Shown here piece after piece: positions 6,940 to 58,400 of a stretch of DNA of 64,000 bases (its first letter is position 1; each line of letters starts with the position of its first letter). This DNA comes from a phage: the sequence record PZ386967.1; one strand, given 5' to 3'. Made by a program: the position numbers and the translations under genes. A model generated the notes under the pieces. It was given only the letters and a program-made list of their open reading frames with translations. It had not been told where the DNA came from and did no database searches.

Positions 6940-6942
6940 TAT

Positions 6943-8847: not shown

Positions 8848-8888
8848 AGCACAACCCTCCAGGTGAGGAGGGGCGAACCCCTCCGATG

Positions 8889-12131: not shown

Positions 12132-12180
12132 CGGCCTATCCCGTCAATGGTAAACACACAAGATTATGTATGGGGTCGGC

Positions 12181-24771: not shown

Positions 24772-24807
24772 GATAATATCCTCGCTTTATAGGCGAGGAT
24801 ATTTATA

Positions 24808-34097: not shown

Positions 34098-34109
34098 GGG
34101 GTATTTAGG
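34098..34109 (-). promoter_or_regulatory. late-promoter-like motif CCTAAATACCCC
   Basis: Same CTAAATACCCC as upstream of the tailspike genes, here on the minus strand ahead of the 33611..34069 gene. Confidence 0.4.
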
Positions 34110-34213
34110 CTTCCCGCTTGGCGAGGTCTGGTTTGTACAGGACGCCTCTCGGAAATATTGGAGGAAGGTTTTCATAGATACCCCACACGGATTGTATGGG
34201 GTATTCAGGAGGG

Positions 34214-43045: not shown

Positions 43046-44236
43046 ATGGCCGATTTTCTGAGTCGATACACAGGTCAGCAGATTGATGCAATCCTTTCTT
43101 CTGTTGACGATAAAATAAGCAAGACTGATGTTGTCAACGATTTCGCTGTTGATGATCCGTTGTTCCCTCCTTCAGCTCATTTGACATACGAGCTGAAGCG
43201 TTCTGTGGATAAAATCTACGACACACTGGAAAACAAAGTGATCCGCACCGACGGTGGTGAACAAACGATCAACGGGAACAAGACCTTTGCTGCGTTATTG
43301 ACAGCCAACGGCGGCCTGACTGTTCCGGCTGGGAAGAAACTGTCTATCGCGGATGAGCCTATAGTAGCGACAGATGGTGTTAACCTGAGCATGTTGAGAA
43401 AGCATGGTGTCAGTGAAGACACTACCCCGCCTGGTTCTGGTTTGGCTGGGGAGTTGTTGACATCCGGATATTACAAATTCAATTTGGATTTCACCAGATT
43501 GTCTGCGTATACCGGATCAACGTTGCCGACTTCAATTCCAGTACAAACAGATTCTGGAGCGCGTTATTGGACAATGACTGCATTTTTTGATGCGTTGTTC
43601 GCAGACAACCGATTTAATGGATATGTGACAACGACAGCGTATGACGCAGATATGCTGAGTCTAGAGTCCCAGATTAATAACATCAACACATCGTTGAACG
43701 GGAAAGTCAACACATCGACTTACAACACTAAGATGGCGTCGTTGGATTTGAGTATCTCCAATATCAATACGTCTCTGGGTAATAAAGTCGAGGTCAGCAC
43801 GTACAACACGAAGATGACATCTCTGGATAACAGCATCAGTTCTCTTTCCAGTGATAAAGTTAATGTATCAACGTATAATGCCAAGATGACCTCTGTCGAC
43901 AATAGTTTAGGGAACGCCGTTTATCGTACCAAAACGAATTTGTCTTCTTACACGGTTTCGGCTTCTGGGACGACGGCTCTTCCAGATTTTGATTTGGTGA
44001 ACCTTTGTCAAATACTGGTGACCGCGCAATGGGGAACAGGTAACGTTGTTGATACATATCGAGTAACCATAACTCGCGACGGAACTATCAAATCGGAGTT
44101 GTTGGTTCAGAAAAGTACGAGCGGTACAGTGACGTTCACAGGGGCTGTGGTGGGTGGTAAATTGAGAATTTCCGTTGTTAATGCGAATACAACAACTGCT
44201 TGTTCGGTCGATTATTCTATTGTAGCTTCTTTCTAA
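43046..44236 (+). CDS. tail-fibre-like protein with tandem ~25-aa repeats
   Basis: Three to four tandem repeats of the form VxxSTYNTKMxSLDxSIS...; start 2 nt after the previous stop. Confidence 0.5.
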   Translation: MADFLSRYTGQQIDAILSSVDDKISKTDVVNDFAVDDPLFPPSAHLTYELKRSVDKIYDTLENKVIRTDGGEQTINGNKTFAALLTANGGLTVPAGKKLSIADEPIVATDGVNLSMLRKHGVSEDTTPPGSGLAGELLTSGYYKFNLDFTRLSAYTGSTLPTSIPVQTDSGARYWTMTAFFDALFADNRFNGYVTTTAYDADMLSLESQINNINTSLNGKVNTSTYNTKMASLDLSISNINTSLGNKVEVSTYNTKMTSLDNSISSLSSDKVNVSTYNAKMTSVDNSLGNAVYRTKTNLSSYTVSASGTTALPDFDLVNLCQILVTAQWGTGNVVDTYRVTITRDGTIKSELLVQKSTSGTVTFTGAVVGGKLRISVVNANTTTACSVDYSIVASF

Positions 44237-44243
44237 AGTGAAA

Positions 44244-44283
44244 ACTAAATACCCCTAGATGAAACGAACACATTTAGGGGTAT
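44244..44283 (+). promoter_or_regulatory. late-promoter-like motif ACTAAATAC plus 5' leader hairpin
   Basis: CTAAATA core, then inverted repeat ATACCCCTA / TAGGGGTAT whose 3' arm holds the only G-rich SD-like sequence before ATG 44289. Confidence 0.45.
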
Positions 44284-44288
44284 TTGAA

Positions 44289-47200
44289 ATGGCTAATAAA
44301 CCAACACAGCCTGTTTTCCCTCTCGGTCTGGTGGCTGAAGAGCAGTCTACTTTGGCTGGTGTCGTCAACACGGGTACGATTGAGCATGGACCAGATGCTG
44401 TCCTGACTTTACCCGAGGGTAATGCCAGCGCAGGACTCCCGTCTTCCGTTCGCTACAATGCCGACTCCGACGAATTTGAGGGCTTCTATGAAAATGGTGG
44501 ATGGTTGCCGCTGGGTGGCGGTGGTATCCGCTGGGAAGTCCTTCCGCATGCCTCTACGGTAATGCTCACTGAAGGGCGAGGCTATCTCATTAATAATACC
44601 ACAGGGGCATCTACAGTGGTTCTCCCTTCCCCTACGCGTATTGGGGATTCCGTTACTATTTGTGATGCTTATGGGAAATTTGCCACTTACCCATTGACCG
44701 TGTCTCCTTCTGGAAATAATTTGTATGGCTCCACTGAAGACATGGCTATAACAACTGATAACGTATCAGCAACGTTCACTTGGTCTGGACCTGAACAAGG
44801 TTGGATTATTACATCCGGCGTCGGTCTTGGCCAAGGCCGTGTCTACAGTCGTGAAATCTTTACAAAAATTTTGGCGTCTGAAACAAGTACTGTCACTCTC
44901 AATACTCCACCAACAATCGTGGACGTGTATGCTGACGGAAAACGCCTTGCGGAATCCAAATATTCACTAGATGGGAATGTAATCACTTTCAGTCCTTCTT
45001 TGCCAGCCAGCACAGAACTTCAGGTGATTGAATATACTCCTATTCAATTGGGTAATGGCGGTGGTTCTAGTTCTTCTACGATTACTTGGGTCTATAATGG
45101 GGGTTCAGCGATTGGCGGTGAAACCGAAATCACGTTGGACGTCGTTGTTGATGATGTTCCGGCCATTGATATAAACGGAAGTCGTCAGTATAAAAATCTG
45201 GGATTCACATTCGATCCATTAACCAGTAAAATCACTCTGGCGCAAGAACTGGAACCAGAAGATGAAGTTGTTGTAATCATCAATGGAACACCAAACATCT
45301 ATAATCAAATTGATCATACTTTGCGGGAAGTGGCTCGTGTAACCAATGTTAAAGATACAGAGGTCGTTTATTTTAGTGTTGGTGCTGTGCTAAGCGGGTA
45401 TAAAGTTATCTATGATAAAGTAACACAGAGATCATATTTTATTCCAGAGCTACCGACTGGAACCACGGCAGTCAGCCTTAGTTCTTCGGCTGTACTTGTG
45501 CATTCTGCTGGTAGTGTTGATCTGGGCGCATTAGCCGTATCTCGTGAGGAGTATGTGACCTTACCTGGTTCATTCGATACAGGTGTAACTGTTAATACCA
45601 AGAATGAGTTGGTTGTGAGTAACGATATTAAATATCGTTGGGATGGTTCTGTACCCAAAGTAGTCCCTCCAGAATCTACCCCATTGGGTACAGGAGGTGT
45701 TGGTCCAGGGGCATGGCTTGTAGTTGGTGTTGTTGGATTAGAGCAACGTTTAGCCTCCTGGAAAGGTTCTTCTCTTATTGATTCCGGTAGTCTGTCTCTT
45801 TACAAAAAGAGCGGTGTATTCGGTGATGGTGGGAATGTATCCGATAAATATCAGGTTGTTCTACATTCAGATGGGTTCTGGTACAAGTACAATGGGACAC
45901 TACCTGTTAGTTATGGTGCTGCCCCAGACTCTTCTTGGACTAACGTTGGTAAGCTAACAGGGTTTAATGAACACTCACCTGAGAATTTTGGTGCAATCCC
46001 CAATGACCCTAGTTTTGACTGTTTACCTGCTATAAAACTAGCTATAGCCACAGGTACATTAAATCTGAATGGGAATTCTACCTACCACGTAACGGATGAG
46101 GTTGTTATACCTTCTTACTTACGTGGGAATCTAAACGGGGCAACAATTAAAGCAATTGGCTCCGTATGGCCTACGTTAAAAGCTGTTGTACGCGTTAGTA
46201 AATTTCCTGTCGGTACAGCAACAGTGGATGTGGCTAATACAGAGAATCAAGTGCGAGGATTACGCTTAATCGGTAGCTTAAACGTAGACTGTGCAGATAT
46301 TGCATCATATGGTTTTTATGCACGTCTTCTGTGTGCAGAATCTGAGATGGGTAGCATCTATGCATATAATGCTAATAGATATGGCATTGTAATGTTTGCT
46401 TGCTGGTATTTTCAAATGGGCACTCTCCATGCAAACAACTGTGCAAGGGGTATGGCATTAGGTTATTCAACAGAAGGTGAGCAAGGGGATACCTATGTGA
46501 ATGCTACACACTTCCCTCACATTAGTGCATGGGGTACTGATAAGTCTACGGGACTAGGTTATGACCCAATCACGGATGATGCGAGTAAATATACAATAGG
46601 TGCTGGTATTATCTTAGGTCGTGGTTTGTCTACCAGTGTTGGTGTGATTTGCTCTGAGAATACGGCAGGTGCTGGGGTAGTAACAATGGACCCTGCTGCG
46701 TGGGACATTGGGGTCATGTACTGTGAGGGTAATAGTAAAGACTTTACTCAAGAGGGTGAACCCAAGGTGTCATTGCTGTCATCCAAGGCCAACAGTGAAA
46801 GTCATACGCTTACCATCTCCACACTCCACCTTTCCGCAGGTTGTGGCATTTTAACCAGAAGCAATCAAGAGCGTGTGCTAATCAGAAGTCTATATCGCTT
46901 TGATAACGCAAAAACCTTCCACTCTTACTGCACAGCAGACACAGTAGAGGTTGGTAGCAGCAACTACTATGTACTTAACGGGCATAATTACAATGCACCT
47001 GCTGCACTTATTAAGGAACCGCTCAATGTAGACTTTGTGCGTTCAGGGTTGACTTTAAGTGAGTGGACATCTACAGTTATCGGTCATTTTGCTGGTAGTA
47101 CAGCAGAACAACAGCTTTATGTTAAGCTCCCAGCAAGTCCCAGCGGCCTAGATTTACAGATAGATAGTGAGGATGGGACGGAATATATCACTGTAACTGG

Positions 47201-47342
47201 TACAGATTTTAAAGTCTCTCTAACTAAGAAAAGATTGCCTAGTAAACTGTATGAGATAAGGATTGGTGGGGTGTCTACAGTAGCTGTTACCGATTGTTCT
47301 ATTCTAGTCAGAAGTAAAAAAGGTGATTGGTATTACTGGTAG
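44289..47342 (+). CDS. tailspike protein with N-terminal adaptor region and internal conserved anchor module (TSP4-like)
   Basis: 1017 aa from ATG 44289; internal about 150-aa module (VVYFSVGAVLSGYKVIYDK...HSAGSVDLGALAVSREEYVTLPGSFDTGVTVNTKNELVV...) shared with three downstream genes; Asn/Gly-rich C-terminal half consistent with a beta-helix. Confidence 0.65.
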   Translation: MANKPTQPVFPLGLVAEEQSTLAGVVNTGTIEHGPDAVLTLPEGNASAGLPSSVRYNADSDEFEGFYENGGWLPLGGGGIRWEVLPHASTVMLTEGRGYLINNTTGASTVVLPSPTRIGDSVTICDAYGKFATYPLTVSPSGNNLYGSTEDMAITTDNVSATFTWSGPEQGWIITSGVGLGQGRVYSREIFTKILASETSTVTLNTPPTIVDVYADGKRLAESKYSLDGNVITFSPSLPASTELQVIEYTPIQLGNGGGSSSSTITWVYNGGSAIGGETEITLDVVVDDVPAIDINGSRQYKNLGFTFDPLTSKITLAQELEPEDEVVVIINGTPNIYNQIDHTLREVARVTNVKDTEVVYFSVGAVLSGYKVIYDKVTQRSYFIPELPTGTTAVSLSSSAVLVHSAGSVDLGALAVSREEYVTLPGSFDTGVTVNTKNELVVSNDIKYRWDGSVPKVVPPESTPLGTGGVGPGAWLVVGVVGLEQRLASWKGSSLIDSGSLSLYKKSGVFGDGGNVSDKYQVVLHSDGFWYKYNGTLPVSYGAAPDSSWTNVGKLTGFNEHSPENFGAIPNDPSFDCLPAIKLAIATGTLNLNGNSTYHVTDEVVIPSYLRGNLNGATIKAIGSVWPTLKAVVRVSKFPVGTATVDVANTENQVRGLRLIGSLNVDCADIASYGFYARLLCAESEMGSIYAYNANRYGIVMFACWYFQMGTLHANNCARGMALGYSTEGEQGDTYVNATHFPHISAWGTDKSTGLGYDPITDDASKYTIGAGIILGRGLSTSVGVICSENTAGAGVVTMDPAAWDIGVMYCEGNSKDFTQEGEPKVSLLSSKANSESHTLTISTLHLSAGCGILTRSNQERVLIRSLYRFDNAKTFHSYCTADTVEVGSSNYYVLNGHNYNAPAALIKEPLNVDFVRSGLTLSEWTSTVIGHFAGSTAEQQLYVKLPASPSGLDLQIDSEDGTEYITVTGTDFKVSLTKKRLPSKLYEIRIGGVSTVAVTDCSILVRSKKGDWYYW

Positions 47343-47350
47343 TATAATAA

Positions 47351-47380
47351 AAAGCCCCCAATTTTGGGGGCTTTTATTAT
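47351..47380 (+). terminator. rho-independent terminator
   Basis: Hairpin AAAGCCCCC-AATTTT-GGGGGCTTT followed by a T-run. Confidence 0.6.
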
Positions 47381-47414
47381 ATAGAGTTTACTGTTTTCAT
47401 TACCCTGATTGATA
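47374..47414 (+). repeat. about 40-nt intergenic repeat, copy 1
   Basis: TATATAGAGTTTACTGTTTTCATTACCCTGATTGATA; near-identical copy at 55206..55246. Confidence 0.6.
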
Positions 47415-47597
47415 ATGCTGTTGGCTCTCTCGGGTTGTCATCAAACGGGTATAAGAACTTTATAGGTGATATCAATGATGGGTCAGCGTATTTTTATTTC
47501 ACCAACATAGATGGATCAAGAATATCGGGGTCGTCTGTTTATGATGGGTGGGGTGATGTTGGTATACATTTTGAAATGTGTCTGGAATAGGAGTGTC

Positions 47598-47696
47598 AAA
47601 CCCCGCTTTGGCGGGGTTCTTATTATACCTTTGTTCATAAATTTGATTAGTTCAGACTAAATACTCCATATTGGTCATCCTTTATGGGGTATTATC
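47598..47696 (+). repeat. duplicated tailspike upstream cassette, copy 1 (hairpin, late-promoter-like motif, leader hairpin)
   Basis: About 85% identical by eye to 50575..50675; includes GACTAAATAC at 47655-47664 and leader hairpin ATACTCCATA / TATGGGGTAT at 47661-47692. Confidence 0.6.
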
Positions 47697-50126
47697 ATGA
47701 TTTCTCAATTCAATCAACCACGCGGCTCCACTTCCATAGAAGTTAACAAACAATCTATCGCTCGAAATTTCGGTGTCAAAGAAGACGAAGTCGTTTATTT
47801 CACTGCTGGTATTGATCTCAGTGGATTTAAAGTAATTTATAATGAGTCTACCCAACGGGCTTATTCTCTTCCTTCAGGTATTGTTTCAGGAACGACTGCG
47901 ATAAGTCTGGATAAAAGAGCTATCCTCACTCATTCAGCGGGTTCTGTTGATCTTGGGGAATTAGCAGTAAGCCGCGAAGAATACGTAACCTTACCTGGTT
48001 CATTTGATACTGGTGTAACTGTTAATACTAAGAATGAATTAGTTGTCTTTACCGATGGTAAGTATCGCTGGGATGGGGCACTGCCTAAAGAAGTGCCTGC
48101 TGGTTCAACCCCTACATCAACCGGTGGTGTTGGAACAGGTGCATGGGTTAGTGTTGGTGATGCGAGTTTGAGGTCAATAGCTCAATACAGAGCCAATACC
48201 ATTGAAGATTTAAAATCATTGCCATTTGCGGTTGGAGATATTGTTAATGTCGCTGGGTATTATGATGTTTTTGATGGGGCACAGCATTACCGAGTGATTA
48301 GTGGTACAGATGATGGAACAGGGGTTCAGCTCAATAATGGTTTGTGGGCAAATATTATCATTAATGGCGATGCTTGTGTAGATTGGTTTGGCGCTAAAGG
48401 TGATGGTGTTGCAGATGACTGGTGGGCAATCAATAAAGCTATTAACGCCTCGCTCTCTACCGATTATCAGGGTGGTTGGTGGGAGACGTCAAGTAGAAAC
48501 CCTAAATTTAAAGTTAGACTTAGTAGACGCTCTTACAGAATCACTAAACAGATTTTACTACCCCCTTACATAGAGTTTTATGGTATGGGTTCGCGCTGGT
48601 ATTTTTCGGGTGATAATAATTCTCGCTTAATCCCTGATTTTGATAATCCGTTGCAATTCGCTGTGAAATCTGCTAGCTATATTGTTGAAACCGGTGAACT
48701 AGCACCTGAGGGGTGGTATTCTGGGGTGGTTTGGGTTGACCCAAAAAAACTAACGACTTGTCATGGTATTAAAACTTATGGATATAGCATCGAACCAACA
48801 AAACAAATTTTAGGCGGTATAAGACTGATAGCGAGTCCAATTTCTCATGTATACGATATATTCATAACAAATGTTGATTTTGGAGTTTTACTGAATTGTT
48901 CATGGGTGAGTAAGGTTGACGTTAAAACTCATCATAATAAATGCGGGGTTATGTCTAGTCATGATGGTAATAACACTCACGTGGATGGTTATTTTACAGG
49001 GACAGAAATCAAACCGCTTGATGGTAATCCTTACCTCAACCCAATAGAGTCTTTAGACTCTACAACAGGGCTCCAAGACCAATCTATATCTGACCCAGAC
49101 AGTAAAATAGGTGTGATTTTTTATTGGTCACAGGGGTCAACAAGTACGAATATGACGTGTGAGGGTAACACTATTTCGTTGGCTGTGGCTAAGGGTGGTG
49201 CTGATGTAAGGTGTTTATACTCAGAACGTAATTCAGATTGTACATTTACTGGGTACAGTTCACTAGTTACAATTGGTGAAATAACTGGCATTGGTGACGG
49301 TGGAACTTTTGAGCTTGGTGTAAATAATACTATTTCGTTAGACAAAGACACTCAGTATGGTGTCGCTAAACGATTTAAGTACGTGAGCGAGTGGGGTAAT
49401 AAGCTGTTTATGCCCTCTAGCTGGAAAGAATACACCAAAGGTTGTTTAGTTGAAGGGTTTGATTATAGCGAAATTTTTGTAGATGCGATAAATGGAGATG
49501 ACACCAATGTTGGCTCCAGTCTTCACCCTGTGAAAACTTTGGAGAGAGCTCTAACGCTTGTGAATTCAGTGTATACTACATCTGACTTGCTAAGCTCAGT
49601 GCCGAGGGATAGAGTAATAAAGTTAGTAGGCTCAGCAACATACTACCCAGACGGACAGCATAGGTTCGTGGGCGGCTCGTTAAAAATTACAAAAGCTGAT
49701 AACTCACGACCGACTGTTAATTTATCAAAACCAATCCGATTTAACGACACATCCCTAGTATTTGAGGAAGTAAATTTAGTGCGACCAACAGATGACCACG
49801 GGAATAATGAGAATGGCGCAATTTTCCTTGAGGATGGGTGTAATGAAGTCAGATTGAAAAACTGCGATCTAAGTCTACAAAAATTCAGCTTCTTATATCC
49901 TACTTGGGGCTTTGCTGGAATATGTACCTTGGTGTTAAACGGGGTTAGTGTTACTGGTGATTCAACAACAAGAATGATACAAACAGCTGATGGATATCAT
50001 GATTTGCACTTGTTTAATGTAATTAGCTACGAGACAACTTACACTGGAGGAATAGAGTCAAGACCAGATAAAGGCTATGATATACCAGCAGATAGACGTG
50101 GTCATATATTGGGTGTATCAATATAA
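47697..50126 (+). CDS. tailspike protein with N-terminal anchor module (TSP1-like)
   Basis: 809 aa; the conserved module sits at the N-terminus; a 50-nt stretch (48114-48163) is identical to 51597-51646; Asn/Gly-rich C-terminal region. Confidence 0.65.
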   Translation: MISQFNQPRGSTSIEVNKQSIARNFGVKEDEVVYFTAGIDLSGFKVIYNESTQRAYSLPSGIVSGTTAISLDKRAILTHSAGSVDLGELAVSREEYVTLPGSFDTGVTVNTKNELVVFTDGKYRWDGALPKEVPAGSTPTSTGGVGTGAWVSVGDASLRSIAQYRANTIEDLKSLPFAVGDIVNVAGYYDVFDGAQHYRVISGTDDGTGVQLNNGLWANIIINGDACVDWFGAKGDGVADDWWAINKAINASLSTDYQGGWWETSSRNPKFKVRLSRRSYRITKQILLPPYIEFYGMGSRWYFSGDNNSRLIPDFDNPLQFAVKSASYIVETGELAPEGWYSGVVWVDPKKLTTCHGIKTYGYSIEPTKQILGGIRLIASPISHVYDIFITNVDFGVLLNCSWVSKVDVKTHHNKCGVMSSHDGNNTHVDGYFTGTEIKPLDGNPYLNPIESLDSTTGLQDQSISDPDSKIGVIFYWSQGSTSTNMTCEGNTISLAVAKGGADVRCLYSERNSDCTFTGYSSLVTIGEITGIGDGGTFELGVNNTISLDKDTQYGVAKRFKYVSEWGNKLFMPSSWKEYTKGCLVEGFDYSEIFVDAINGDDTNVGSSLHPVKTLERALTLVNSVYTTSDLLSSVPRDRVIKLVGSATYYPDGQHRFVGGSLKITKADNSRPTVNLSKPIRFNDTSLVFEEVNLVRPTDDHGNNENGAIFLEDGCNEVRLKNCDLSLQKFSFLYPTWGFAGICTLVLNGVSVTGDSTTRMIQTADGYHDLHLFNVISYETTYTGGIESRPDKGYDIPADRRGHILGVSI

Positions 50127-50574
50127 ATAATTGATATTATGCTTCATGGTGATTGTGGGTGATTCACCCACGATTACTTTTAGGTACTACAGTTGATAAT
50201 TCAGATTGATACATTGGATTGGCAGGTGCGTGTAATACTGCACTTGAATTTTGATACATAAATCCGGCACCCTCCCTCACCCTCAACGCGCCCAATTGCC
50301 CCCATAGGAGGCTCATTACCTCCTTGTGGGCTTTGTTGTTTTTGTGGCTGCTGTTGCTGACTACATTCTATGTATGGATGTATCTCATCATACTAAGCAT
50401 TATCTAAGAGCCATCCTATGATACGACCCCATTGGGATTCCTAACTTCACAACTACGGTAATATTATGAATTAATCAGGTGAACTGCTCCTAGTCAGACT
50501 GGAGGAACGATTGAAGACTCTGTTTGATAATCAGGCAAGGGATAGATAGGATCGTGGTTTTGGAGAGTAAAATC

Positions 50575-50675
50575 AAAACCCCTCTTCGGCGGGTTCTTGT
50601 TATACCTTTGTTCATAAATTTATTAGTTCAGACTAAATACCCCATATTGGCAAATCCTCTATGGGGTATCTTCAA
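50575..50675 (+). repeat. duplicated tailspike upstream cassette, copy 2
   Basis: Contains GACTAAATAC at 50631-50640 and perfect 10-bp leader hairpin ATACCCCATA / TATGGGGTAT at 50637-50669; the ORF-track ATG at 50661 lies inside the hairpin arm. Confidence 0.6.
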
Positions 50676-53180
50676 ATGACCAGAAACGTCGAGAGCATCT
50701 TTGGAGCGGTCGTAACAGCTCCGCACCAGATTCCATACACTTACACAGCAACGGGTGGAGAGAAGTTTATCTCCCTCCCTTTCTACCCTGTCACTGGTAT
50801 AGTCACAATCAACGGTGGCATGCAAGTTCCGTTAGACAACTTTGAAATCGATGGAAATACGTTGAATCTCGGACGCGCATTATCCAAAGGTGACGTTGTG
50901 TTCTGTCTGTTTGATAAGATTCTGTCTCCAGAAGATTATAAAACCGGGGTTCGAATCTATAAGTTTCAGGCTATAGGAGGTGAAACCGAGTTCACTCCTG
51001 ATTACACATATTATGGAGTCCAATCTCTTTATATCGGTGGTGAGTACAAAACACCCGAAATTGAATATTCCTATGACAGCACGACAGGGAAAGTGTCTTT
51101 ACAAACTGCGCTGACTGCAGGCGTTTGGGTAGTCGCTGAAATGTCTGTTAAACAACCGAATATCAGTCCGTTGTTTGACCGAAGTATTCAAGAAATCGCT
51201 CGTGCAACTAACGTTAAGGACAGTGAAGTAATTCTTAGCACTGACACTACGCAATTATTGAATGGTAAAAAGATTGTCTACTCTGTTAGTGAGCAGAAGT
51301 CATATGGGTTACCTTCATTACCCTCTAACATATACATCTCATCCGTTAGTAATGGGCAGTTAACGTACAATCCAGGTAATATTACTGTTACTTTGTTACC
51401 TACTCATCAAGAGTCGAATACCAGAGAATTGTGGAGACGTTTACTTGCAGAAGCAGGTTTATCTCTCGTTGCTGGTAGCTTTGAAGAAGGTGCAACAGTT
51501 AATAGTGAAACGGATGCTGTTTGGCACATCGCTGGTGGTCAGTGCTATACGTGGGAGGGTGCACTACCTAAAGTTGTCCCCGCTGACTCAACCACTACAT
51601 CAACCGGTGGTGTTGGAACAGGTGCATGGGTTAGTGTTGGTGATGCTTCATTGAAGTCAGAATTGGCTAAACCTACAGGAGCAGGTTTTTCAGGTTTTGA
51701 TAAGTCAATTGATTACGAAACTGGTACTGTTGGCAATGCGCTTAAGAAAATTATAAATGTCAACCCGGATATGTATCCATCATTACAGGATGCGATTGAT
51801 GCTGCGGCAGCTTTAACAGGTTTAGAACATGCACCAAGTAGTGCTGCTAACCATCCTGACTGGCTACAACCTAACACTGTAAGCAAAGTTATCAGGCTGA
51901 ATGGGAAGAAATATCCTATCAGTACGACACTACACATTCACGGAGATGTTAGCATTGATGCTGGTTTCGGTGGGGTATACCTGACAGATGACTTCATAGC
52001 AGACTCATCTGGTTATGCTGTAAAGTGTGATAAAGGTACAGGTAATCAATACGCTGGGCACATTAGCAATCTTTTAATTGATGCCCGTGCAAAAACTGTT
52101 AATGGATTTAAAATATCTGATGGTTATGCCAACAAGTTAGATGGCATTTACGTAGCCAATATTGATGGTCATGGCATCCATATTGCTGGCGGTATGGGTG
52201 TGCACCTATTGAAGTTTTATGCTGTTGGTGTATTAAAACCAACTAATCCACTCAGCACAGCCCACATTGTTGAAGGTAGCGATCATCAGGTTAGTATGGG
52301 TGAAGGTCGTTATTTCCGATTTGGTACCTGGGTTCGTGGTGGTGGCAATAACAGAATTAGTAAGGTGCACAACTGGGGCATGTATGACGATACAGTCACT
52401 GACCAGAACTCAAGGATGAAATGCTGCTTTGTTGTACAGAACTCAATAAACAATTCCTTCAATCAATGTTTTGCAGATTCTCCATCAAAATGGGACTACG
52501 CGAAAGCTAATTTAGATCCTGTAGATGGTTATATTAACGGCGGGATTGGCTTTTTTATTGATGGTGGAGCCACCGGTAATACGTTCTCTCAATGCCAGAC
52601 GTTTGTGAATATGAATGCGTTTAATGACGCAGGGCTATCTTCATATACGGCATCACTAATGCCATTCGCCGTTGGTAGTATCAACTGTTCATTCATTGAG
52701 TGTGAAAACTCAAACTCACCAGCATGGGTGGCAAGGCTGATAACTCATATTTACTCTGCGGACCAGACATTTACTAACATACTTGCAGCTAAGAATTTTG
52801 TTGGTATAGAGTATGATATGGTTTGCAATAGTACAATTTTCAGGAAAAATGTTGGAGTTCCTGTATTGGTAAGAAATCCAAAGTTCGAGACGCCAACAGC
52901 AAGTTATGCGCCTGACTTTTCAGACGCATCTTACATCGCAGCTACAGTTACAGGAGATGTAACAATAACTCCAGCAGTATTAACAAATACACTAATTGGT
53001 TATGTTGAGGTTCTTTTGGCTGTCTATTCAACAACATCTAAAACAATAACATTTGGTGCAAATGTTAAATTAGCAAGCAATACCCCATCTTTGACAGCAG
53101 CTGGAACACAAGTTTTTAGGTTGTCAACAACTGATGAAGGAGCAACCTGGTTTTGTAAGTTCGAGAGTGCTTACTCGTAA
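50676..53180 (+). CDS. tailspike protein with N-terminal adaptor region and internal anchor module (TSP2-like)
   Basis: Start moved to ATG 50676; conserved module at about residues 170-330, including TSTGGVGTGAWVSVGDASL identical to the 47697 gene. Confidence 0.6.
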   Translation: MTRNVESIFGAVVTAPHQIPYTYTATGGEKFISLPFYPVTGIVTINGGMQVPLDNFEIDGNTLNLGRALSKGDVVFCLFDKILSPEDYKTGVRIYKFQAIGGETEFTPDYTYYGVQSLYIGGEYKTPEIEYSYDSTTGKVSLQTALTAGVWVVAEMSVKQPNISPLFDRSIQEIARATNVKDSEVILSTDTTQLLNGKKIVYSVSEQKSYGLPSLPSNIYISSVSNGQLTYNPGNITVTLLPTHQESNTRELWRRLLAEAGLSLVAGSFEEGATVNSETDAVWHIAGGQCYTWEGALPKVVPADSTTTSTGGVGTGAWVSVGDASLKSELAKPTGAGFSGFDKSIDYETGTVGNALKKIINVNPDMYPSLQDAIDAAAALTGLEHAPSSAANHPDWLQPNTVSKVIRLNGKKYPISTTLHIHGDVSIDAGFGGVYLTDDFIADSSGYAVKCDKGTGNQYAGHISNLLIDARAKTVNGFKISDGYANKLDGIYVANIDGHGIHIAGGMGVHLLKFYAVGVLKPTNPLSTAHIVEGSDHQVSMGEGRYFRFGTWVRGGGNNRISKVHNWGMYDDTVTDQNSRMKCCFVVQNSINNSFNQCFADSPSKWDYAKANLDPVDGYINGGIGFFIDGGATGNTFSQCQTFVNMNAFNDAGLSSYTASLMPFAVGSINCSFIECENSNSPAWVARLITHIYSADQTFTNILAAKNFVGIEYDMVCNSTIFRKNVGVPVLVRNPKFETPTASYAPDFSDASYIAATVTGDVTITPAVLTNTLIGYVEVLLAVYSTTSKTITFGANVKLASNTPSLTAAGTQVFRLSTTDEGATWFCKFESAYS

Positions 53181-53184
53181 AACT

Positions 53185-53210
53185 AACCCCGCTTCGGCGG
53201 GGTTTCTTAG
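53185..53210 (+). terminator. terminator-like hairpin
   Basis: Hairpin AACCCCGC-TTCG-GCGGGGTT followed by TTCTTAG. Confidence 0.45.
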
Positions 53211-53228
53211 AAAAACAAAGAGGTCGTT

Positions 53229-55145
53229 ATGAACGAAATGTTCTCACAAGGTGGTAAAGGCTCTACTGGTATTCTTACCAATAAGCAAGCCATTGCCCGT
53301 AAGTTTGGTGTTAAACAGAATGAGGTAGTCTACTTTGCTGTAGGTGTAGACTTAGGTGGTTACAAAGTAATTTATGATAAGGCTACTCAGCGTGCCTATT
53401 CCTTGCCTGCTGACATTGGTTCAGGGGTGACTGCTGTAAGTCTTGGTACTAATGCCGTACTTGTACATTCAGCTGGTTCCGTAGATCTTGGGGAATTAGC
53501 CGTATCTCGTGAAGAATACGTTACATTGTCTGGGTCGTTTGACAATGGTGCTACACTTAATGTTAAAAATGAATTGCTTACCCATACAACAGGTAAGTAT
53601 CGCTGGGATGGTGAGTTACCTAAAACCGTTTCTTCTGGCTCAACTCCTGAAAGTGCTGGAGGTACTGGGTTAGACAAGTGGGTTAGTGTTGGTGATGCAG
53701 CCTTGAGAATCAATCTTGCATCTGATGATGGCGCTGGTCTGGTCGGATTTAAGTCACCTCTGGCCAACTCCATTAAGCGAACACTACATGATAAAAATAA
53801 AGACCTGGTGTCAGTCAAGGACTTCGGGGCTGTTGGCGACGGTGTGACCGATGATACCGCCGCGTTTCAGGCAGCAATAGATTCGAAAAAGAGTTTATAC
53901 ATACCGGATGGTATTTATCTTATAAGCTCTACTTTAATCATAACTGCCACTGATAGTCTATGTATTGTTGGTAATAGTTTTGGACATGTTAATGACCAAA
54001 CAACAGGTTCAGTAATTAAGTTTACCGGGTTAGCGTCACCCGCCATTCGGGTTCAAGGTGGTGCGATAGGAGCTAAGATTTCTGGACTTTTCTTGGATAT
54101 TCAGGACTCATCGTCTGATGGTTTTGATTTCGGAGGGGCTTGGTACCTAAAACTTCAAGATTGCGTTGTCAGAAACGCCCGGTACGGTGTTTATTTACAT
54201 TACGACGCCCCAGACTATTTTTCCGGGGTGGCTGAGCTAACTTCATGCTATTTCGCTAAATGTGCAAATGGTGTAAAAACGTCAAAAGTAGATATCAACG
54301 TAGTTAAAGTTGATAATTGTACTTTCTTTGATGGTGTTAACGGTGTTCTTATCGGAGACTCAGGTACTGCAAGTAGTGTACGAAATTTCATAGTCAGAGA
54401 CTCTCTATTTGAAGCAAACACGGGCTATGACGTAGGTGTTGTCGCCGGGGGTGCACAGCAGTTACTGGTAGATGGTAACTACTTTGAAGAGAATACTGCT
54501 TCTTCTTTAGCCAGGGTATATGTTGCAGATGATAGTCACTCACCGCGTTCTTCTTCTGTTTCAATAACCAACAACACGTTTAGCAAAGATACGACAGGCG
54601 ATCTTATTTTCCTGTCCGGTATTTCCGGTGTTCTTGTTAAACAAAACTGGTCAGCATTTGGGGGTATAGGTTTTGTAAGGGCTATTAATATCGACAATTA
54701 TGAGATAGATAGATGCTCTACCGTATCTGGAGCAACAGCCTGTAATGTTGTTATAGATAACGTCTTACAAGTACCTGACACTTCTGTTAATAAGATTTAT
54801 ATTAACAAGGCCCAAGAATACGCATTTATTGGGTCTACCGTCGCAAAAAGGTCGAGTGCATGTACACGGGCAATGATCAATTTTAATGGAATTTCGGGGT
54901 CGTCAGTGTATGCGGATGGAGCAACTGTAACTAAAACCGGGACCGGTAAATATACCGTCAACCTATCTAATACTATGCCCTCCTCTGCTTATGCTGTTTT
55001 ATGCAGTGTTGGCAATACCACTAGCGGAGGGAAATTAGTAATTAATGTCGTAAGTACATCCCCTGACTCTTTTAACTTAGAAGTTTTTGACCTTTCTGGA
55101 TCGTATCAAGATTCAGGATACATATCTGCCGCAGTTGTTATGTAA
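53229..55145 (+). CDS. tailspike protein with N-terminal anchor module and beta-helix-like C-terminus (TSP3-like)
   Basis: 638 aa; N-terminal module about 65% identical to that of the 47697 gene; C-terminal repeats typical of right-handed beta-helix (pectate-lyase-like) folds. Confidence 0.65.
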   Translation: MNEMFSQGGKGSTGILTNKQAIARKFGVKQNEVVYFAVGVDLGGYKVIYDKATQRAYSLPADIGSGVTAVSLGTNAVLVHSAGSVDLGELAVSREEYVTLSGSFDNGATLNVKNELLTHTTGKYRWDGELPKTVSSGSTPESAGGTGLDKWVSVGDAALRINLASDDGAGLVGFKSPLANSIKRTLHDKNKDLVSVKDFGAVGDGVTDDTAAFQAAIDSKKSLYIPDGIYLISSTLIITATDSLCIVGNSFGHVNDQTTGSVIKFTGLASPAIRVQGGAIGAKISGLFLDIQDSSSDGFDFGGAWYLKLQDCVVRNARYGVYLHYDAPDYFSGVAELTSCYFAKCANGVKTSKVDINVVKVDNCTFFDGVNGVLIGDSGTASSVRNFIVRDSLFEANTGYDVGVVAGGAQQLLVDGNYFEENTASSLARVYVADDSHSPRSSSVSITNNTFSKDTTGDLIFLSGISGVLVKQNWSAFGGIGFVRAINIDNYEIDRCSTVSGATACNVVIDNVLQVPDTSVNKIYINKAQEYAFIGSTVAKRSSACTRAMINFNGISGSSVYADGATVTKTGTGKYTVNLSNTMPSSAYAVLCSVGNTTSGGKLVINVVSTSPDSFNLEVFDLSGSYQDSGYISAAVVM

Positions 55146-55162
55146 GTAATAATCACTTAAAA

Positions 55163-55191
55163 ACAACCCCACTTCTATGGGGTTGTTTTTA
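55163..55191 (+). terminator. rho-independent terminator
   Basis: Hairpin AACAACCCCA-CTTCTA-TGGGGTTGTT followed by TTTTT. Confidence 0.55.
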
Positions 55192-55205
55192 CTTATTAAT
55201 AATAC

Positions 55206-55246
55206 TTTTTATATAGAGTTTACTGTTTGCATTACCCTAATCGATA
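55206..55246 (+). repeat. about 40-nt intergenic repeat, copy 2
   Basis: TATATAGAGTTTACTGTTTGCATTACCCTAATCGATA; about 36 of 39 positions identical to 47374..47414. Confidence 0.6.
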
Positions 55247-55404
55247 CAGCAGTTAAGGTAATAGTCTGACCTGATATATTAAACATACCTAATTGAATAC
55301 CATCTACCATGAATGGCAGAGGTCTCGAATCCATGACCATAACCACAGAAAGATAATCAAAGCCCCTTCGGGCTTATTTCTTTCTATTCCTCGGTTGGTT
55401 GTAT

Positions 55405-55413
55405 ACTAAATAT
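55405..55413 (+). promoter_or_regulatory. late-promoter-like motif ACTAAATAT
   Basis: 42 nt upstream of ATG 55447, which has a GGAG SD. Confidence 0.4.
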
Positions 55414-55446
55414 CTCTATAATGGCACCTATCGATGGAGCATCAAA

Positions 55447-58400
55447 ATGCAAGAAATGAACCTCAACCGCCGCCCATATTGGGATGACTGGAATCCAGAG
55501 AAGCGTTTTTCGCGCATCCTATTCCGTCCGGCACCTATCAAAGTTCAGACGCGTGAACTGAACCAGATGCAGACCATCTTCCAGGATCAACTGGAGAAAC
55601 TTGGCAACCATCTGTTCAAAGACGGTTCAATGGTTATCCCCGGCGGCCTAACGATCACCAACACTGCTGTGTCCATGAAGTTCACTCTGGCTGGTGGTAG
55701 TGAGTTCACTGATCTGGAAGGTATCTCCGAACTCTATGTTCTGGGCAAGGACAACAATGCGAAAGCACGCGTCCTGTCCTTGGAACGTTATCCAGCTGAG
55801 CCGGATACAATGTATGCCATCTTAGAGATGACTGAGAGTGGTAGTTCAGACGGTTTCGAAGCTGGTGACAATCTATACTTCAACACCTATGACGTGAACG
55901 ATAACTTCATCCGTGTCGGCTATGGTGTGGCCGATACTGTTGGCGGTTCGATTGTCGCTCGCATGACAAAGGGTGTTTATTTCGTTCGTGGTATGTTCCT
56001 GGATGTTGAACCAACCACTTTGATCGTAGACAACGCATCGAACTCTACATCTCACCGCATTGGCTTCAAAGTTACAGAAACAATCGTGACTGAAGCAGAA
56101 GATGAAAGTCTGTTCTCCAATACTCAGGGTACTCCGAACTCTAAAGCCCCTGGTGCGCATCGCCTGCGCGTCGACCTCGTGTTGTCTCGCTACGGTTATG
56201 ATGAAGAAGTGGCCGACTTCGTCGAACTGGCGAAGGTGAAAGACGGTCGCATTCAGTCCATGGTCACCCAGTCAACATACAACATCCTCGAAGACGCCAT
56301 GGCTCAGCGTACCTATGAGACCAATGGTGACTACAACGTCTCTACTCACCAGATCGACCTACGCGAACATCTGAAACAGAACAACAACGGTGGCGTATAC
56401 ACTCCGGCTGAAGGTGGTGATGAAAGCAAATTCGTGGCTGTTATGAAGCCAGGCATTTCCTACGTTCGTGGTCGTCGTATCGAAAACCTCGGCGAAGAGC
56501 TGGTCATAATTGACAAAGCCCGTGACACTGATATCCTGAACAACAACCCTGTGGCTGTTTCGACTGGCAACTATCTGGTGTCCAAGAACTCCAAAGGGGT
56601 TCCGGTTGTCTCCCGCACAATCCGCTACAAGTTCCTGAACGCATCCAGCGATGTGCAGGCCACCGCCCTGCTGATTTCGGCAGAGCGCTCCGGTACTGAA
56701 TTCCGTCTGTATATGCGCGACCTGGTTGTGACTGGGGACATGGGTACTGTTACCAAAGTTGCATACGAAGAAAGCGGCACAACCATGTTCTCCTGCGAAC
56801 TGGAGTCCAATCAGTTCAGCCAGAGTTCAGCAATTGACCTGATCTTCCCTCTGCCTGTATTTGGTGTGAAGACTCTAGCACCTACAGGCACCATCGACAT
56901 CAACTACACCGTCCTGCGGTCAAACAAGATCACGTTGAACGCCGCTGGTGCAGGCTCAATCTCTGCTCCTCTGGGTTACAGCTTCAGCCCTGAGTTTTCA
57001 CTGTACTCCGCAGCGAAGGCAGATGGCACTGCAGCTCAGTTTGATATCTCTTCGGGACTGTCCCTGGCTGGTACTCCGGTTGGTTCAGCACTGCAGATTT
57101 CCCTGGGCGCGGGGTATGCCAACCAGTCTATCAACCTGTTGGCATTGATGGTCCGCACCACAGCGACGATCAAGACCAAGACTGTTACCGAAGCCACCGA
57201 GACTGTGACGTTTACTGCGGCGGCCAGCGCACAACTTGGGAACCATGATGGTTACAAGCTGATCAGCGTGAAGAACGCAAATGGCGCTGACGTCACCTCG
57301 AACTTCACTCTGGACGGTGGTCAACGCGATGCGGCATACTACCTTTCTAACCTCATATCGTCCACAGGAGCCATTTCAGGGACGTTCACGGTGGTGTATC
57401 AGTATTTCGCTCACAGCTCTGGTGATTTCTTCACAGCGGACTCCTATTCGTCCATCAACTACCCAGACATCCCGAACTATGTTTCATCCAGTTCTGGTAC
57501 TGTGTATGGATTGGCCGACAGTCTGGATTTCCGTCCCAAGATCACCAGCGGAGCGTCTGACACGGACATGGTTCGTCCGAACACCGCGATCATCCTAGAT
57601 GCAGAGTACTATCTGCCTCGTATTGATGCTGTGTATCTGGCAGACAACGGCGTGTTCAACGTTGCTCGTGGTGTGAGTTCCAACAACCTGGCTTCCCCTG
57701 CGATCCCAGACAACGGCATGCGCCTGTATGAATTGATGATCCCACCATACACGGCCAACATTGACGACATCCAGATTCGTACTATCGACAACCGCCGCTA
57801 CACGATGCGCGATATCGGTAAACTGGAGACCCGTATCTCCAATGTCGAATATTACACCTCACTGTCTCAGCTGGAATCCTCGGCGATGTCACAACAGGTG
57901 TTCGATCCAATTACTGGTAACCCGCGCTTCAAGAACGGTATCGCAGCAGACCCGTTCAAAGACTTCCGTCTGATCGACGATTTGTCTGCAGACTGGGTGG
58001 GTTCAATCGACACTGACAATGGTCGCCTACGCCCGTTTGTTCAGCAGAACGCGATTGACCTGACGCCAGTCGGTTGGAACAACGTTCAGGATGGCATGGT
58101 TGTATGCAACTACACCCGTGAGATCTCTGTCCGCCAGGACTATGCAACCACGACCATCAACGTGAACCCGTATGCGGTGTTCAACTGGGAAGGCTTCTTG
58201 AAGCTGAACCCGACTACTGATTACTGGTTTGAGAACTACTATGTCACCCCACGTGTGATCAACGAAACGATCAACACCCGTGGTGCGATCAAAGAAGGTT
58301 CTGTGTATGGCACATGGCGTACTGTGTCTGTGTCTGAGCGTGTGTGGGAACCGCATGGTGCAGGTGGTGTATGGTGGGGCTATCGCTACCGCACGACTGT

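What the first reader, a model, noticed from the sequence alone, without database searches (positions are those of the whole stretch)
47598..47696. Duplicated regulatory cassette of about 100 nt ahead of two tailspike genes
47598-47696 and 50575-50675 are about 85% identical. Each contains a GC hairpin, TTATACCTTTGTTCATAAATTT(G)ATTAGTTCAGACTAAATAC, a leader hairpin and the start codon. The cassette supplies each tailspike gene with its own terminator-promoter-leader unit and, being repeated, gives flanking homology for cassette exchange or deletion.
Basis: seen in the sequence. Interest (0 to 1): 0.5.

Follow-up and report, generated by a model that had tools for sequence, protein, structure and literature searches.

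The report
Repeated late-promoter leader before tailspike genes
The two roughly 100-base repeats are copies of the control region that Ackermannviridae phages place in front of their tailspike genes: a terminator-like hairpin, a T4-style late promoter, and a second hairpin that hides the ribosome-binding site. This is a new example of a known phage design, and it also acts as a recombination site that has deleted a tailspike gene in nature.

Summary
Window 47596-47699 and 50573-50678 match in 93 of 108 aligned columns (blastn E 1.7e-29). The window comes from an Ackermannviridae phage (Agtrevirus/Kuttervirus-like), and the repeats precede the TSP3-like and TSP2-like tailspike genes.

The unit is a composite of two modules.
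- **Optional 5' module.** It is a GC hairpin plus a 38-nt AT-rich spacer, found only in Kuttervirus and Agtrevirus. In copy B of this window the hairpin is eroded.
- **Near-invariant 3' module (42-46 nt).** It is present in every genus examined. It holds CTAAATA(C/T), the family's version of the T4 late promoter TATAAATA, followed by a hairpin. The 5' arm of that hairpin starts inside the promoter, and its 3' arm is the Shine-Dalgarno sequence GGGG(U).

The same design, with different stem sequences, precedes TSP4, gp6, VriC and a neck gene. Covariation supports the helix.

By T4 geometry, late transcripts should start inside the 5' arm and leave the ribosome site free. Read-through transcripts would be translationally silent, as at T4 genes e, soc, 49 and I-TevI. 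This step is inferred; no transcription start-site data exist.

The recombination idea is supported. Phage PhaxI carries one hybrid A/B cassette and lacks TSP3 relative to CBA120, and the homology blocks shared with relatives start at the cassette edge.

This is a new member of a known kind and of moderate interest.

The parts
47599..47618 (+). GC hairpin A (AACCCCGC-TTTG-GCGGGGTT) followed by CTTATTAT. It is terminator-like and could also act as a 3'-end stabiliser.
   Evidence: Listed by the terminator scan. Folds at -15.3 kcal/mol, z -3.85. The stem is kept through compensatory changes in relatives, for example CCCCTC/GAGGGG.
47619..47656 (+). AT-rich 38-nt spacer A (CTTATTATACCTTTGTTCATAAATTTGATTAGTTCAGA). 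Its function is unknown. It contains a TATAAATA-like CATAAATT.
   Evidence: Conserved in Kuttervirus and Agtrevirus but diverged in S117 copy A, shortened in CBA120 copy A, and absent in KEP4, sal1 copy A and three other genera. No sigma-70 match at the scan's threshold.
47657..47664 (+). Putative gp55-type late promoter box A (CTAAATAC).
   Evidence: CTAAATAY occurs 8 times in the window against 2.47 expected, and no shuffle of 100 reached 8. It lies 30-45 nt upstream of the ATG of gp6, TSP4, TSP3, TSP2, VriC and a neck gene here, and at the matching genes in the relatives examined.
47660..47693 (+). Leader hairpin A. The 5' arm 47660-47670 overlaps the promoter box. The 3' arm 47683-47693 contains the Shine-Dalgarno GGGG (47686-47689). 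The ATG is at 47697.
   Evidence: Folds at -16.6 kcal/mol, z -3.5. Probability that the Shine-Dalgarno region is paired: 1.0.
47697..50126 (+). TSP3-like tailspike gene (809 aa). Its receptor-binding part from 48069 is 95% identical to the tail spike of Phapecoctavirus ukendt.
50574..50599 (+). GC hairpin B, eroded (AACCCCTCTTCGGCGGGTT).
   Evidence: Folds at -6.6 kcal/mol, z -1.05. Not listed by the terminator scan.
50600..50632 (+). Spacer B, the AT-rich stretch between the eroded hairpin and the promoter box.
   Evidence: Alignment A1.
50633..50640 (+). Putative late promoter box B (CTAAATAC).
50637..50669 (+). Leader hairpin B. The 5' arm is 50637-50646 and the 3' arm 50660-50669, with Shine-Dalgarno GGGG at 50663-50666. 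The likely start codon is ATG 50676. An in-frame ATG at 50661 lies inside the stem.
   Evidence: Folds at -16.3 kcal/mol, z -3.1.
50676..53180 (+). TSP2-like tailspike gene.
44245..44291 (+). The same architecture before TSP4: CTAAATAC box at 44245-44252, a 16-bp hairpin (44246-44261 with 44271-44286) with a different inner stem (CCCCTAGATG/CATTTAGGGG), and ATG at 44289.
   Evidence: Folds at -22.2 kcal/mol, z -7.1.
53185..53204 (+). A third copy of the GC hairpin alone, between TSP2 and TSP1. It is followed by an ordinary Shine-Dalgarno sequence (AGAGG) and no late box.
   Evidence: blastn E 5.5e-4 against copy A. Folds at -15.1 kcal/mol. Sequence.
47349..47377 (.). Canonical bidirectional terminator directly after the TSP4 stop codon (AAAAAGCCCCCAATTTTGGGGGCTTTTAT). 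It makes hairpin A redundant in this genome.
   Evidence: Sub-threshold Rfam attenuator-type hits on both strands.

Best explanation
Each repeat is the expression unit that Ackermannviridae phages put in front of a tailspike gene. It reads, 5' to 3', as four parts.

1. **GC stem-loop with a U-rich tail.** It ends or stabilises the upstream tailspike transcript. It is optional, and in copy B here it has decayed.
2. **AT-rich spacer.** Its role is unknown.
3. **The box CTAAATA(C/T).** This is the family's form of the T4 late promoter TATAAATA. It would be read by host RNA polymerase carrying the phage gp55-like sigma factor, with no -35 element.
4. **A 10-16-bp hairpin.** Its 5' arm (ATACCCC...) begins inside the box, and its 3' arm (...GGGGTAT) is the ribosome-binding site, 7-9 nt before the ATG.

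T4-type late transcripts start about 6-7 nt after the box. They should therefore begin inside the 5' arm (about 47668-47671 and 50644-50647) and carry a free ribosome-binding site. Any transcript arriving from upstream contains the whole hairpin and is poorly translated. Each of TSP4, TSP3 and TSP2 would then be translated only from its own, nearly identical promoter and leader. That would insulate their dosage from gene order and from whatever receptor-binding module lies upstream.

Because the unit is repeated and conserved, it also serves as a homology arm. It marks the right-hand boundary of exchangeable receptor-binding modules, and recombination between the two copies deletes the gene between them.

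**Shown:** the repeat, the structures, the covariation, the family-wide conservation, the motif enrichment, the PhaxI deletion and the mosaic boundaries. **Inferred:** the promoter identity, the start-site position, the translational effect and the dosage-insulation rationale.
For: **The repeat is real.**

**It is family-wide.** The 111-nt query hits 248 phage records, most with two places each. The full length is found in Kuttervirus and Agtrevirus. Only query positions 67-108 (box plus hairpin plus Shine-Dalgarno sequence) are found in Limestonevirus, Taipeivirus, Nezavisimistyvirus and Serratia phages. The exact 18-mer CTAAATACCCCATATTGG occurs in IMG/VR on 20 contigs, all 152-164 kb, the genome size of the Ackermannviridae records above.

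**The box behaves like a late promoter.**
- CTAAATAY occurs 8 times against 2.47 expected (0 of 100 shuffles reach 8). Seven of the eight lie 30-45 nt before a start codon; six of those genes are annotated structural genes (gp6, TSP4, TSP3, TSP2, VriC, neck Hc2) and the seventh has no known function.
- No sequence is conserved upstream of the box, and no sigma-70 match lies in either cassette.
- The family encodes gp55, gp33 and gp45 homologues (PMC3184105; PMC3121705). T4 late promoters are an 8-bp box about one helical turn upstream of the start site, with no -35 element (PMC2988020).

**The hairpin is real.**
- Fold z-scores run from -3.1 to -7.1.
- On 18 distinct leaders, 97% of cells are paired, 4 of 11 pairs change on both sides, and the covariation score is 0.306 against 0.121 in shuffles (0 of 500 reach it). 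Slid controls give about 0.
- Six different stem sequences share the same register: TSP4, TSP3/TSP2, gp6, VriC, neck, and the gene at 24808-26043.
- The Shine-Dalgarno pairing probability has a median of 0.87 in 8 box-bearing leaders against 0.52 in 66 others (Mann-Whitney p 0.0066).
- The bases after CTAAATA(C/T) vary between genes and track the Shine-Dalgarno sequence: CCCC with GGGG, CTTC with GAGG/GGAG, CTCT with GGAG.

**There is a T4 precedent.** Genes e, soc, 49 and I-TevI use this design (PMC3014915; PMC2988022).

**Recombination is documented.**
- PhaxI 2979-10058 matches CBA120 locus positions 1-7102, and PhaxI 10001-13364 matches CBA120 9039-12401. The two matches overlap by 58 nt inside the cassette, and TSP3 is absent.
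- The literature confirms that PhaxI shares TSP2 and TSP4 subtypes with CBA120 and that some kutterviruses have only three TSP genes.
- Homology between the window and kutterviruses starts at 47598-47601 and at 50572-50577.
Against: - No transcription start-site, Term-seq or ribosome-profiling data for any Ackermannviridae phage were found, so the key step, a start inside the 5' arm, is inferred from T4 geometry alone.
- In T4 the segment just downstream of the box is AT-rich. Here it is CCCC, which may shift or weaken initiation.
- One box-bearing leader (34108, minus strand) has CCCCATA but no pairing with its Shine-Dalgarno sequence, so CCCC could be partly a promoter feature.
- Most upstream transcription in this cluster probably also comes from late promoters, so the T4 rationale of blocking early translation may not apply. 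The dosage-insulation idea is untested.
- The covariation rests on a few independent events among related sequences.
- gp55 was not found among the 10 window ORFs scanned. Its presence rests on the literature for relatives.
- Hairpin B is eroded, and hairpin A is redundant with the terminator at 47349-47377.
Confidence: 0.6

Rival explanations
1. The hairpin is part of the late mRNA itself. Transcription starts at or before the first paired base, and the stem-loop is a 5'-terminal stabiliser against RNase E or 5'-end-dependent decay. Alternatively it is a constitutive attenuator that keeps tailspike translation low.
For: The hairpins are strong (-16 to -22 kcal/mol) and sit at the very 5' end of any transcript that starts near the box. 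The GC-rich CCCC after the box is unlike the AT-rich T4 initiation region, so the start-site geometry may differ.
Against: The 5' arm begins inside the box itself (ATA of CTAAATA), which cannot be transcribed from that same promoter under any sigma-type geometry. The 3' arm always covers the Shine-Dalgarno sequence rather than lying upstream of it. The spacer, the only alternative promoter location, is absent in many genomes that keep the hairpin.
Confidence: 0.2
2. The unit is a generic terminator plus host-type (sigma-70) promoter plus leader, and the whole 45-nt conserved string is the promoter.
For: Hairpin A passes a terminator-like scan. The spacer is conserved between the copies and contains weak hexamers, TTCATA-N17/18-TAAATA, seen by eye.
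Against: No sigma-70 match lies in either copy at the scan's threshold, and the region as a whole has no excess of such sites (30 found against 32 expected). The spacer is missing or diverged in many relatives, while the tailspike genes and CTAAATAC remain. The box recurs before other structural genes with no common upstream sequence.
Confidence: 0.07
3. The similarity of the two copies is maintained mainly for recombination. The cassette would be a selected 'portable homology' element, or a mobile element, rather than an expression signal.
For: PhaxI shows a deletion between the copies. Mosaic boundaries fall at the cassette edge. Foreign DNA scars abut the cassettes.
Against: There are no terminal inverted repeats, target duplications or associated enzyme. 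The position is fixed in front of the same orthologous genes in every genus. The most conserved part is the promoter, Shine-Dalgarno sequence and hairpin, not the ends. The A and B copies keep orthologous differences across genomes (TTTGATT against TTTTATT; loop GGTCATCC against GGCAAATCC), so there is no strong sign of ongoing gene conversion. Recombination use is most simply a by-product of a conserved expression signal.
Confidence: 0.08

Closest known systems
Phage T4 leaders of genes e (lysozyme), soc, 49 and I-TevI (also segB, and mobE of Aeh1): a hairpin that sequesters the ribosome-binding site, with a late promoter in the DNA encoding its 5' arm
   Same: A late-promoter box lies immediately upstream of, or inside, the 5' arm. 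The 3' arm covers the Shine-Dalgarno sequence. Genes sit downstream of other co-oriented genes, so read-through transcripts exist. The predicted outcome is that only transcripts from the gene's own late promoter are translated (PMC3014915; PMC2988022).
   Different: Here the design is applied to a tandem set of structural tailspike genes, and to gp6, VriC and neck genes. It is repeated with a near-identical sequence and conserved across at least five genera. The AUG is not paired. The upstream transcripts are probably also late, so the role may be dosage insulation rather than temporal control. No start site or translation effect has been measured.
T4-type late promoter (TATAAATA; gp55 sigma, gp33 co-activator, gp45 clamp)
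   Same: An 8-bp A/T box with no conserved -35 element, found before late structural genes. The family encodes gp55, gp33 and gp45 homologues.
   Different: The consensus is CTAAATA(C/T), with C at the second position of the 8-mer. In the tailspike leaders the box is followed by GC-rich CCCC instead of AT-rich sequence. Late promoters in this family have so far only been predicted in silico: TATAAATA with one mismatch in AG3 and 33 sites in LIMEstone1. I recall a 'CTAAATAcCcc' consensus from the 2012 Viunalikevirus genus proposal, but could not retrieve that paper.
Intrinsic (Rho-independent) terminators and intercistronic UUCG/UUUG stem-loops
   Same: An 8-bp GC stem, a tetraloop and a U-rich tail in copy A. 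The stem is kept through compensatory changes in relatives.
   Different: The tail is only moderately U-rich (CUUAUUAU). Copy B is eroded. The same hairpin before TSP1 is followed by a promoterless gene, so it cannot terminate efficiently there.
Homologous-recombination hot spots of Ackermannviridae tailspike clusters (conserved N-terminal XD/TD domains, GTTAVSL motif)
   Same: Conserved segments flank variable receptor-binding modules. Exchange and deletion of tsp genes have been seen in silico and in engineered S117 (PMC8432352; PMC11414711).
   Different: Published work places the homology in the 5' coding regions and flanking genes. Here the intergenic cassette is shown to be part of the conserved block, and to be the junction of a natural TSP3 deletion in PhaxI. 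SE14, by contrast, lost a gene through the intragenic TD1 route.

Membership tests
T4-type gp55-dependent late promoter | TATAAATA-like 8-bp box, with no conserved -35 element | tested here: met
   (A)CTAAATA matches 7 of 8 positions of TATAAATA. The flanks upstream of the box differ at every site. No sigma-70 match was found.
T4-type gp55-dependent late promoter | Enriched in front of late (virion structural) genes | tested here: met
   8 found against 2.47 expected. Seven of the 8 lie 30-45 nt before a start codon: gp6, TSP4, TSP3, TSP2, VriC, neck Hc2 and a gene of unknown function (phrog_3852). The same positions hold in the Ackermannviridae loci fetched for comparison.
T4-type gp55-dependent late promoter | Phage encodes gp55, gp33 and gp45 homologues | not tested
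   Not found among the 10 window ORFs scanned. Reported for CBA120, ViI, AG3 and SH19.
T4-type gp55-dependent late promoter | Transcripts start about 6-7 nt downstream of the box, late in infection and dependent on replication | not testable with these tools
   No start-site data in the literature searched.
T4-style translational control (ribosome-binding-site hairpin with embedded late promoter) | A stable helix contains the Shine-Dalgarno sequence and/or the AUG | tested here: met
   The Shine-Dalgarno GGGG is paired with probability 0.88-1.0. The AUG is unpaired.
T4-style translational control (ribosome-binding-site hairpin with embedded late promoter) | The late promoter is placed so that its own transcripts lack the 5' arm | tested here: inconclusive
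   The sequence geometry fits: the box overlaps the first 4-5 nt of the 5' arm, and the predicted +1 falls 9 nt into an 11-nt arm. The start site itself has not been measured.
T4-style translational control (ribosome-binding-site hairpin with embedded late promoter) | Longer upstream transcripts exist and are poorly translated | not testable with these tools
   The genes are co-oriented and tandem. There is no terminator at all between TSP genes in KEP4, phiD3, Magnus and Bue1, so read-through is expected.
Intrinsic terminator | GC-rich stem-loop directly followed by a U-tract | tested here: inconclusive
   Copy A has an 8-bp stem with 6 GC pairs, and its tail has 5 U in 8. Copy B is not different from shuffles. 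The hairpin before the promoterless TSP1 gene must allow read-through.
Mobile element (MITE-like) or homing site | Terminal inverted repeats, target-site duplication, variable genomic positions | tested here: not met
   The position before orthologous genes is fixed in all genomes, and the repeats are direct, not terminal inverted.
Rfam RNA families | Match at the gathering score | tested here: not met
   No family reaches its gathering score in 44000-56000. Only sub-threshold attenuator-like hits occur at the terminator 47311-47462.

The most novel reading that the evidence does not exclude
The anti-Shine-Dalgarno sequence embedded in the promoter may be a general insulation device for Ackermannviridae late genes. 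Every late structural gene that carries it would be translated only from its own promoter's transcripts. The three tandem tailspike genes would then be made in fixed, equal amounts whatever their order, whatever terminators are present, and whatever foreign receptor-binding module has been swapped in upstream. On this reading the 'CCCC' that looks like part of the late-promoter consensus is really the anti-Shine-Dalgarno sequence. The near-invariant 42-46-nt unit would be what makes tailspike genes plug-and-play across the genera examined.
Probability: 0.3. Interest if true: 0.55.

Novelty: new member of a known kind. Interest (0 to 1): 0.35.

Why it matters
Ackermannviridae phages are being engineered by swapping tailspike genes to retarget them against Salmonella, E. 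coli and Klebsiella. Three practical points follow.
- The 42-46 nt before each gene is a self-contained late promoter with a translational gate that must be kept intact.
- The hairpin and spacer upstream of it are dispensable.
- The two copies recombine and can delete TSP3. This helps explain unexpected deletions in engineered phages and gives a design rule for stable constructs.

The finding also extends a classic T4 regulatory trick to a distant family and gives testable start-site predictions for a family whose late promoters have never been mapped.

Tried and rejected
- **Sigma-70 promoter in the cassette.** No match at the scan threshold, and no excess of such sites in the region.
- **Known RNA family.** Nothing at gathering score.
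- **Mobile element.** No terminal inverted repeats, and the position is fixed.
- **Recent gene conversion between copies A and B.** Copy-specific differences are shared by orthologous copies in other genomes (SeE, AV101 and the window for A; most kutterviruses for B). There is therefore no clear concerted evolution, although SJ2 copy A has a B-like spacer.
- **Published start-site or RNA-seq data for the family.** None found.
- **The 2012 Viunalikevirus paper.** I believe it gives the late-promoter consensus, but it is not held in the library.
- **gp55 in the window.** Not among the 10 ORFs scanned.
- **IMG/VR scan for rearranged variants.** It returned 25 stretches on 20 contigs of 152-164 kb, with one or two copies seen per stretch, and I did not examine them further.
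- **SE14 as a second cassette-mediated deletion.** Rejected. Its junction lies inside the coding regions, between the TSP4 N-terminal part and TSP3.

Full report
**1. Observation**

The two segments are real repeats.
- A global alignment of 47596-47699 with 50573-50678 gives 93 identical columns of 108, with 6 gap columns.
- blastn of copy A against the window finds copy B at E 1.7e-29. It also finds a third, partial copy (the hairpin only) at 53185-53209, E 5.5e-4.
- One correction: the GC hairpin of copy B is eroded (-6.6 kcal/mol, z -1.05), whereas copy A's is sound (-15.3 kcal/mol, z -3.85).

**2. Context**

The window is from an Ackermannviridae phage.
- The flanks are about 93% identical to Agtrevirus AV101 and about 89% identical to kutterviruses.
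- The plus strand carries gp6, Hc2 and an unnamed gene. These are followed by TSP4 (likely start 44289), TSP3 (47697), TSP2 (50676), TSP1 (53229) and VriC (55447). This is the same order as CBA120 orf213 to orf209.
- The repeats precede TSP3 and TSP2.

**3. The cassette is family-wide and made of two modules**

- The 111-nt query finds 248 phage records, most with two places each.
- The whole unit is present in Kuttervirus and Agtrevirus.
- In Limestonevirus, Taipeivirus, Nezavisimistyvirus (Bue1) and Serratia phages, only the last 42 nt or so match.
- Reading the upstream regions directly shows that the GC hairpin plus 38-nt spacer is absent in phiD3, Magnus, IME250, Bue1, KEP4 (both copies) and sal1 copy A. 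It is shortened in CBA120 copy A and diverged in S117 and phage 38 copy A.
- The 42-46 nt from CTAAATAC to the ATG is almost invariant. The TSP3 leader is identical in AV101, sal1, SeE, S117, SJ2, KEP4 and phage 38. The window differs from it by one C-to-T change, which makes a G-U pair.

**4. The promoter**

- CTAAATA(C/T) occurs 8 times in the window against 2.47 expected, and no shuffle of 100 reaches 8.
- Seven copies lie 30-45 nt before the start codons of gp6, TSP4, TSP3, TSP2, VriC, a neck gene (phrog Hc2) and a gene of unknown function.
- The same positions hold in the Ackermannviridae loci fetched for comparison.
- Nothing is conserved upstream of the box, and no sigma-70 match lies in either cassette.
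- The family encodes gp55, gp33 and gp45 homologues.
- T4 late promoters are an 8-bp box about one helical turn upstream of the start site, with no -35 element.
- The box is therefore best read as a gp55-type late promoter. It had only been predicted in silico for relatives.

**5. The leader hairpin**

- In all three large tailspike leaders, the 5' arm starts within the box (ATACCCC...). The 3' arm (...GGGGTAT) is the only purine-rich stretch at Shine-Dalgarno distance, 7-9 nt before the ATG.
- Folding energies are -16 to -22 kcal/mol, with z-scores from -3.1 to -7.1.
- The same register with different stem sequences is found at several other genes:

| Gene | 5' arm / 3' arm |
|---|---|
| gp6 | ATCTTCA / TGGAGAT (ATCTCC / GGAGAT in Taipeivirus) |
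| VriC | CTCTAT / ATGGAG |
| neck gene | ATACCTTCA / TGAGGGTAT |
| 34208, minus strand | CCCCATAC / GTGTGGGG |
| gene at 24808-26043, minus strand (box TATAAATA) | ATATCCTCGC / GCGAGGATAT |

- On 18 distinct leaders the 11-bp helix is paired in 97% of cells, and four pairs change on both sides. The covariation score is 0.306 against 0.121 in shuffles (0 of 500 reach it), and slid controls are near zero.
- Across the window, the Shine-Dalgarno region is more often paired in box-bearing leaders (median 0.87, n=8) than in the others (0.52, n=66; p 0.0066).
- The bases after the box vary between genes and match each gene's Shine-Dalgarno sequence. This argues that 'CCCC' is an anti-Shine-Dalgarno sequence rather than part of the promoter.

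**6. Mechanism**

- With T4 geometry the late transcript starts about 6-7 nt after the box, roughly 9 nt into the 11-nt 5' arm. It therefore cannot form the helix, and its ribosome site is free.
- Transcripts from upstream contain the helix.
- This is the documented T4 arrangement at e, soc, 49 and I-TevI.
- Terminators between the tailspike genes are weak, eroded or absent, as in KEP4, phiD3, Magnus and Bue1. I infer that the device restricts translation of each tailspike to transcripts from its own near-identical promoter, which would insulate dosage.
- The start site and the translational effect are not measured.
- One point against: the GC-rich segment after the box is unlike T4.

**7. Terminator module**

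- Hairpin A looks like a moderate intrinsic terminator.
- In this genome TSP4 already ends with a canonical bidirectional terminator at 47349-47377.
- Hairpin B has decayed.
- The same hairpin before the promoterless TSP1 gene must be read through.
- It is therefore optional, possibly serving as a 3'-end stabiliser.

**8. Recombination**

- Homology between the window and kutterviruses begins at 47598-47601 and at 50572-50577, exactly at the cassette edge. It ends inside the N-terminal anchor domains, at about 48165 and 51280.
- The conserved block is therefore the cassette plus the N-terminal domain. The variable block is the receptor-binding module plus its trailer.
- PhaxI gives direct evidence of recombination between the copies. 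It is collinear with CBA120 through TSP4 and cassette A (96.8% identity), and from cassette B onward (95.5%). The two matches overlap by 58 nt inside the cassette.
- PhaxI's single cassette is A-like on the left and B-like on the right, and TSP3 is missing. This agrees with published TSP typing.
- SE14 lost a gene by a different route, through intragenic TD1 homology.

**9. Novelty**

All the components belong to known kinds. The papers I could search do not describe three things:
- the application of the T4-style gate to the tailspike genes of this family;
- the near-invariance of the 42-46-nt unit across genera;
- the cassette junction of the PhaxI deletion.

The finding is of moderate interest.

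Noticed in passing
window 48069-50339: The receptor-binding part of the TSP3-like gene, plus 213 nt of trailer after its stop codon, is 95-96% identical to the tail spike gene region of Escherichia phage ukendt (Phapecoctavirus, Stephanstirmvirinae). This is a recent cross-family transfer of a tailspike module. The match starts at the conserved linker (repeat D2).
   Followed up: partly
window 47343-47422 and 50368-50556: Both intergenic trailers are 83-90% identical to Gamaleyavirus (G7C-like N4 podophages such as ZQ2, ECBP1 and St11Ph5). In ZQ2 the two pieces lie about 70 nt apart, directly downstream of its tailspike gene (17058-17132 and 17205-17393). The second piece runs into the start of the next ZQ2 gene. 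They look like scars of an imported tailspike module, now split between two sites and ending just before the cassettes.
   Followed up: partly
window 47374-47422 and 55206-55254: A 49-nt direct repeat, 86% identical, lies in the trailer after TSP4 and in the trailer after TSP1. Each follows a strong terminator hairpin (47349-47377 and 55158-55191).
   Followed up: no
window 50270-50311 and 50302-50345: Short pieces of 42-44 nt in the TSP3 trailer match other phages at 93-98% identity. One matches the direct terminal repeats of KP34-like Klebsiella podophages. The other matches the single-stranded DNA-binding protein genes of Jersey-like Salmonella phages. In all, 357 records are hit. This patchwork is unexplained.
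   Followed up: partly
window 34108-34208, minus strand: Two late-box motifs lie 100 nt apart. The upstream one (CTGAATACCCC) has a full hairpin covering the Shine-Dalgarno sequence but precedes only a mini-ORF of about 30 codons. The downstream one (CTAAATACCCCATATGG) precedes the 152-aa gene and has no such hairpin.
   Followed up: no
window 24770-24811, minus strand: A perfect T4 consensus TATAAATA is followed by the hairpin ATATCCTCGC/GCGAGGATAT, which covers the Shine-Dalgarno sequence of the 411-aa gene of unknown function (phrog_3271). This is the same design with the canonical T4 box.
   Followed up: partly
window 50661: An ATG inside the 3' arm of leader hairpin B is in frame with the TSP2 gene and is the longest-ORF start. 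PhaxI's annotation uses the equivalent codon (MGYFQMTRN...). It has no Shine-Dalgarno sequence of its own. The likely true start is 50676.
   Followed up: partly
L009 (PhaxI) 9960-9985 compared with L002 (CBA120) 7020-7040: The GC hairpin of PhaxI's cassette looks like an inverted version of the CBA120 hairpin (CGCCAAAAGCG against CGCTTTTGGCG). This suggests that the palindrome has flipped.
   Followed up: no
L008 (SE14) 6912-9986 compared with L007 (sal1): The 'TSP4' of SE14 is a fusion of the TSP4 N-terminal domains with the TSP3 receptor-binding module. About 2.4 kb is deleted by recombination between the homologous TD1 regions (repeat D1 in the window: 45501-45682, 47931-48112 and 53466-53647).
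   Followed up: partly
window 47632-47645 and 50609-50621: The spacer contains (T)TCATAAATTT. This resembles the T4 late box (CATAAATT matches 6 of 8; TATAAATT in CBA120 copy A and PhaxI matches 7 of 8). It lies about 22 nt upstream of CTAAATAC and could be a second, upstream late promoter whose transcripts would contain the whole hairpin.
   Followed up: no
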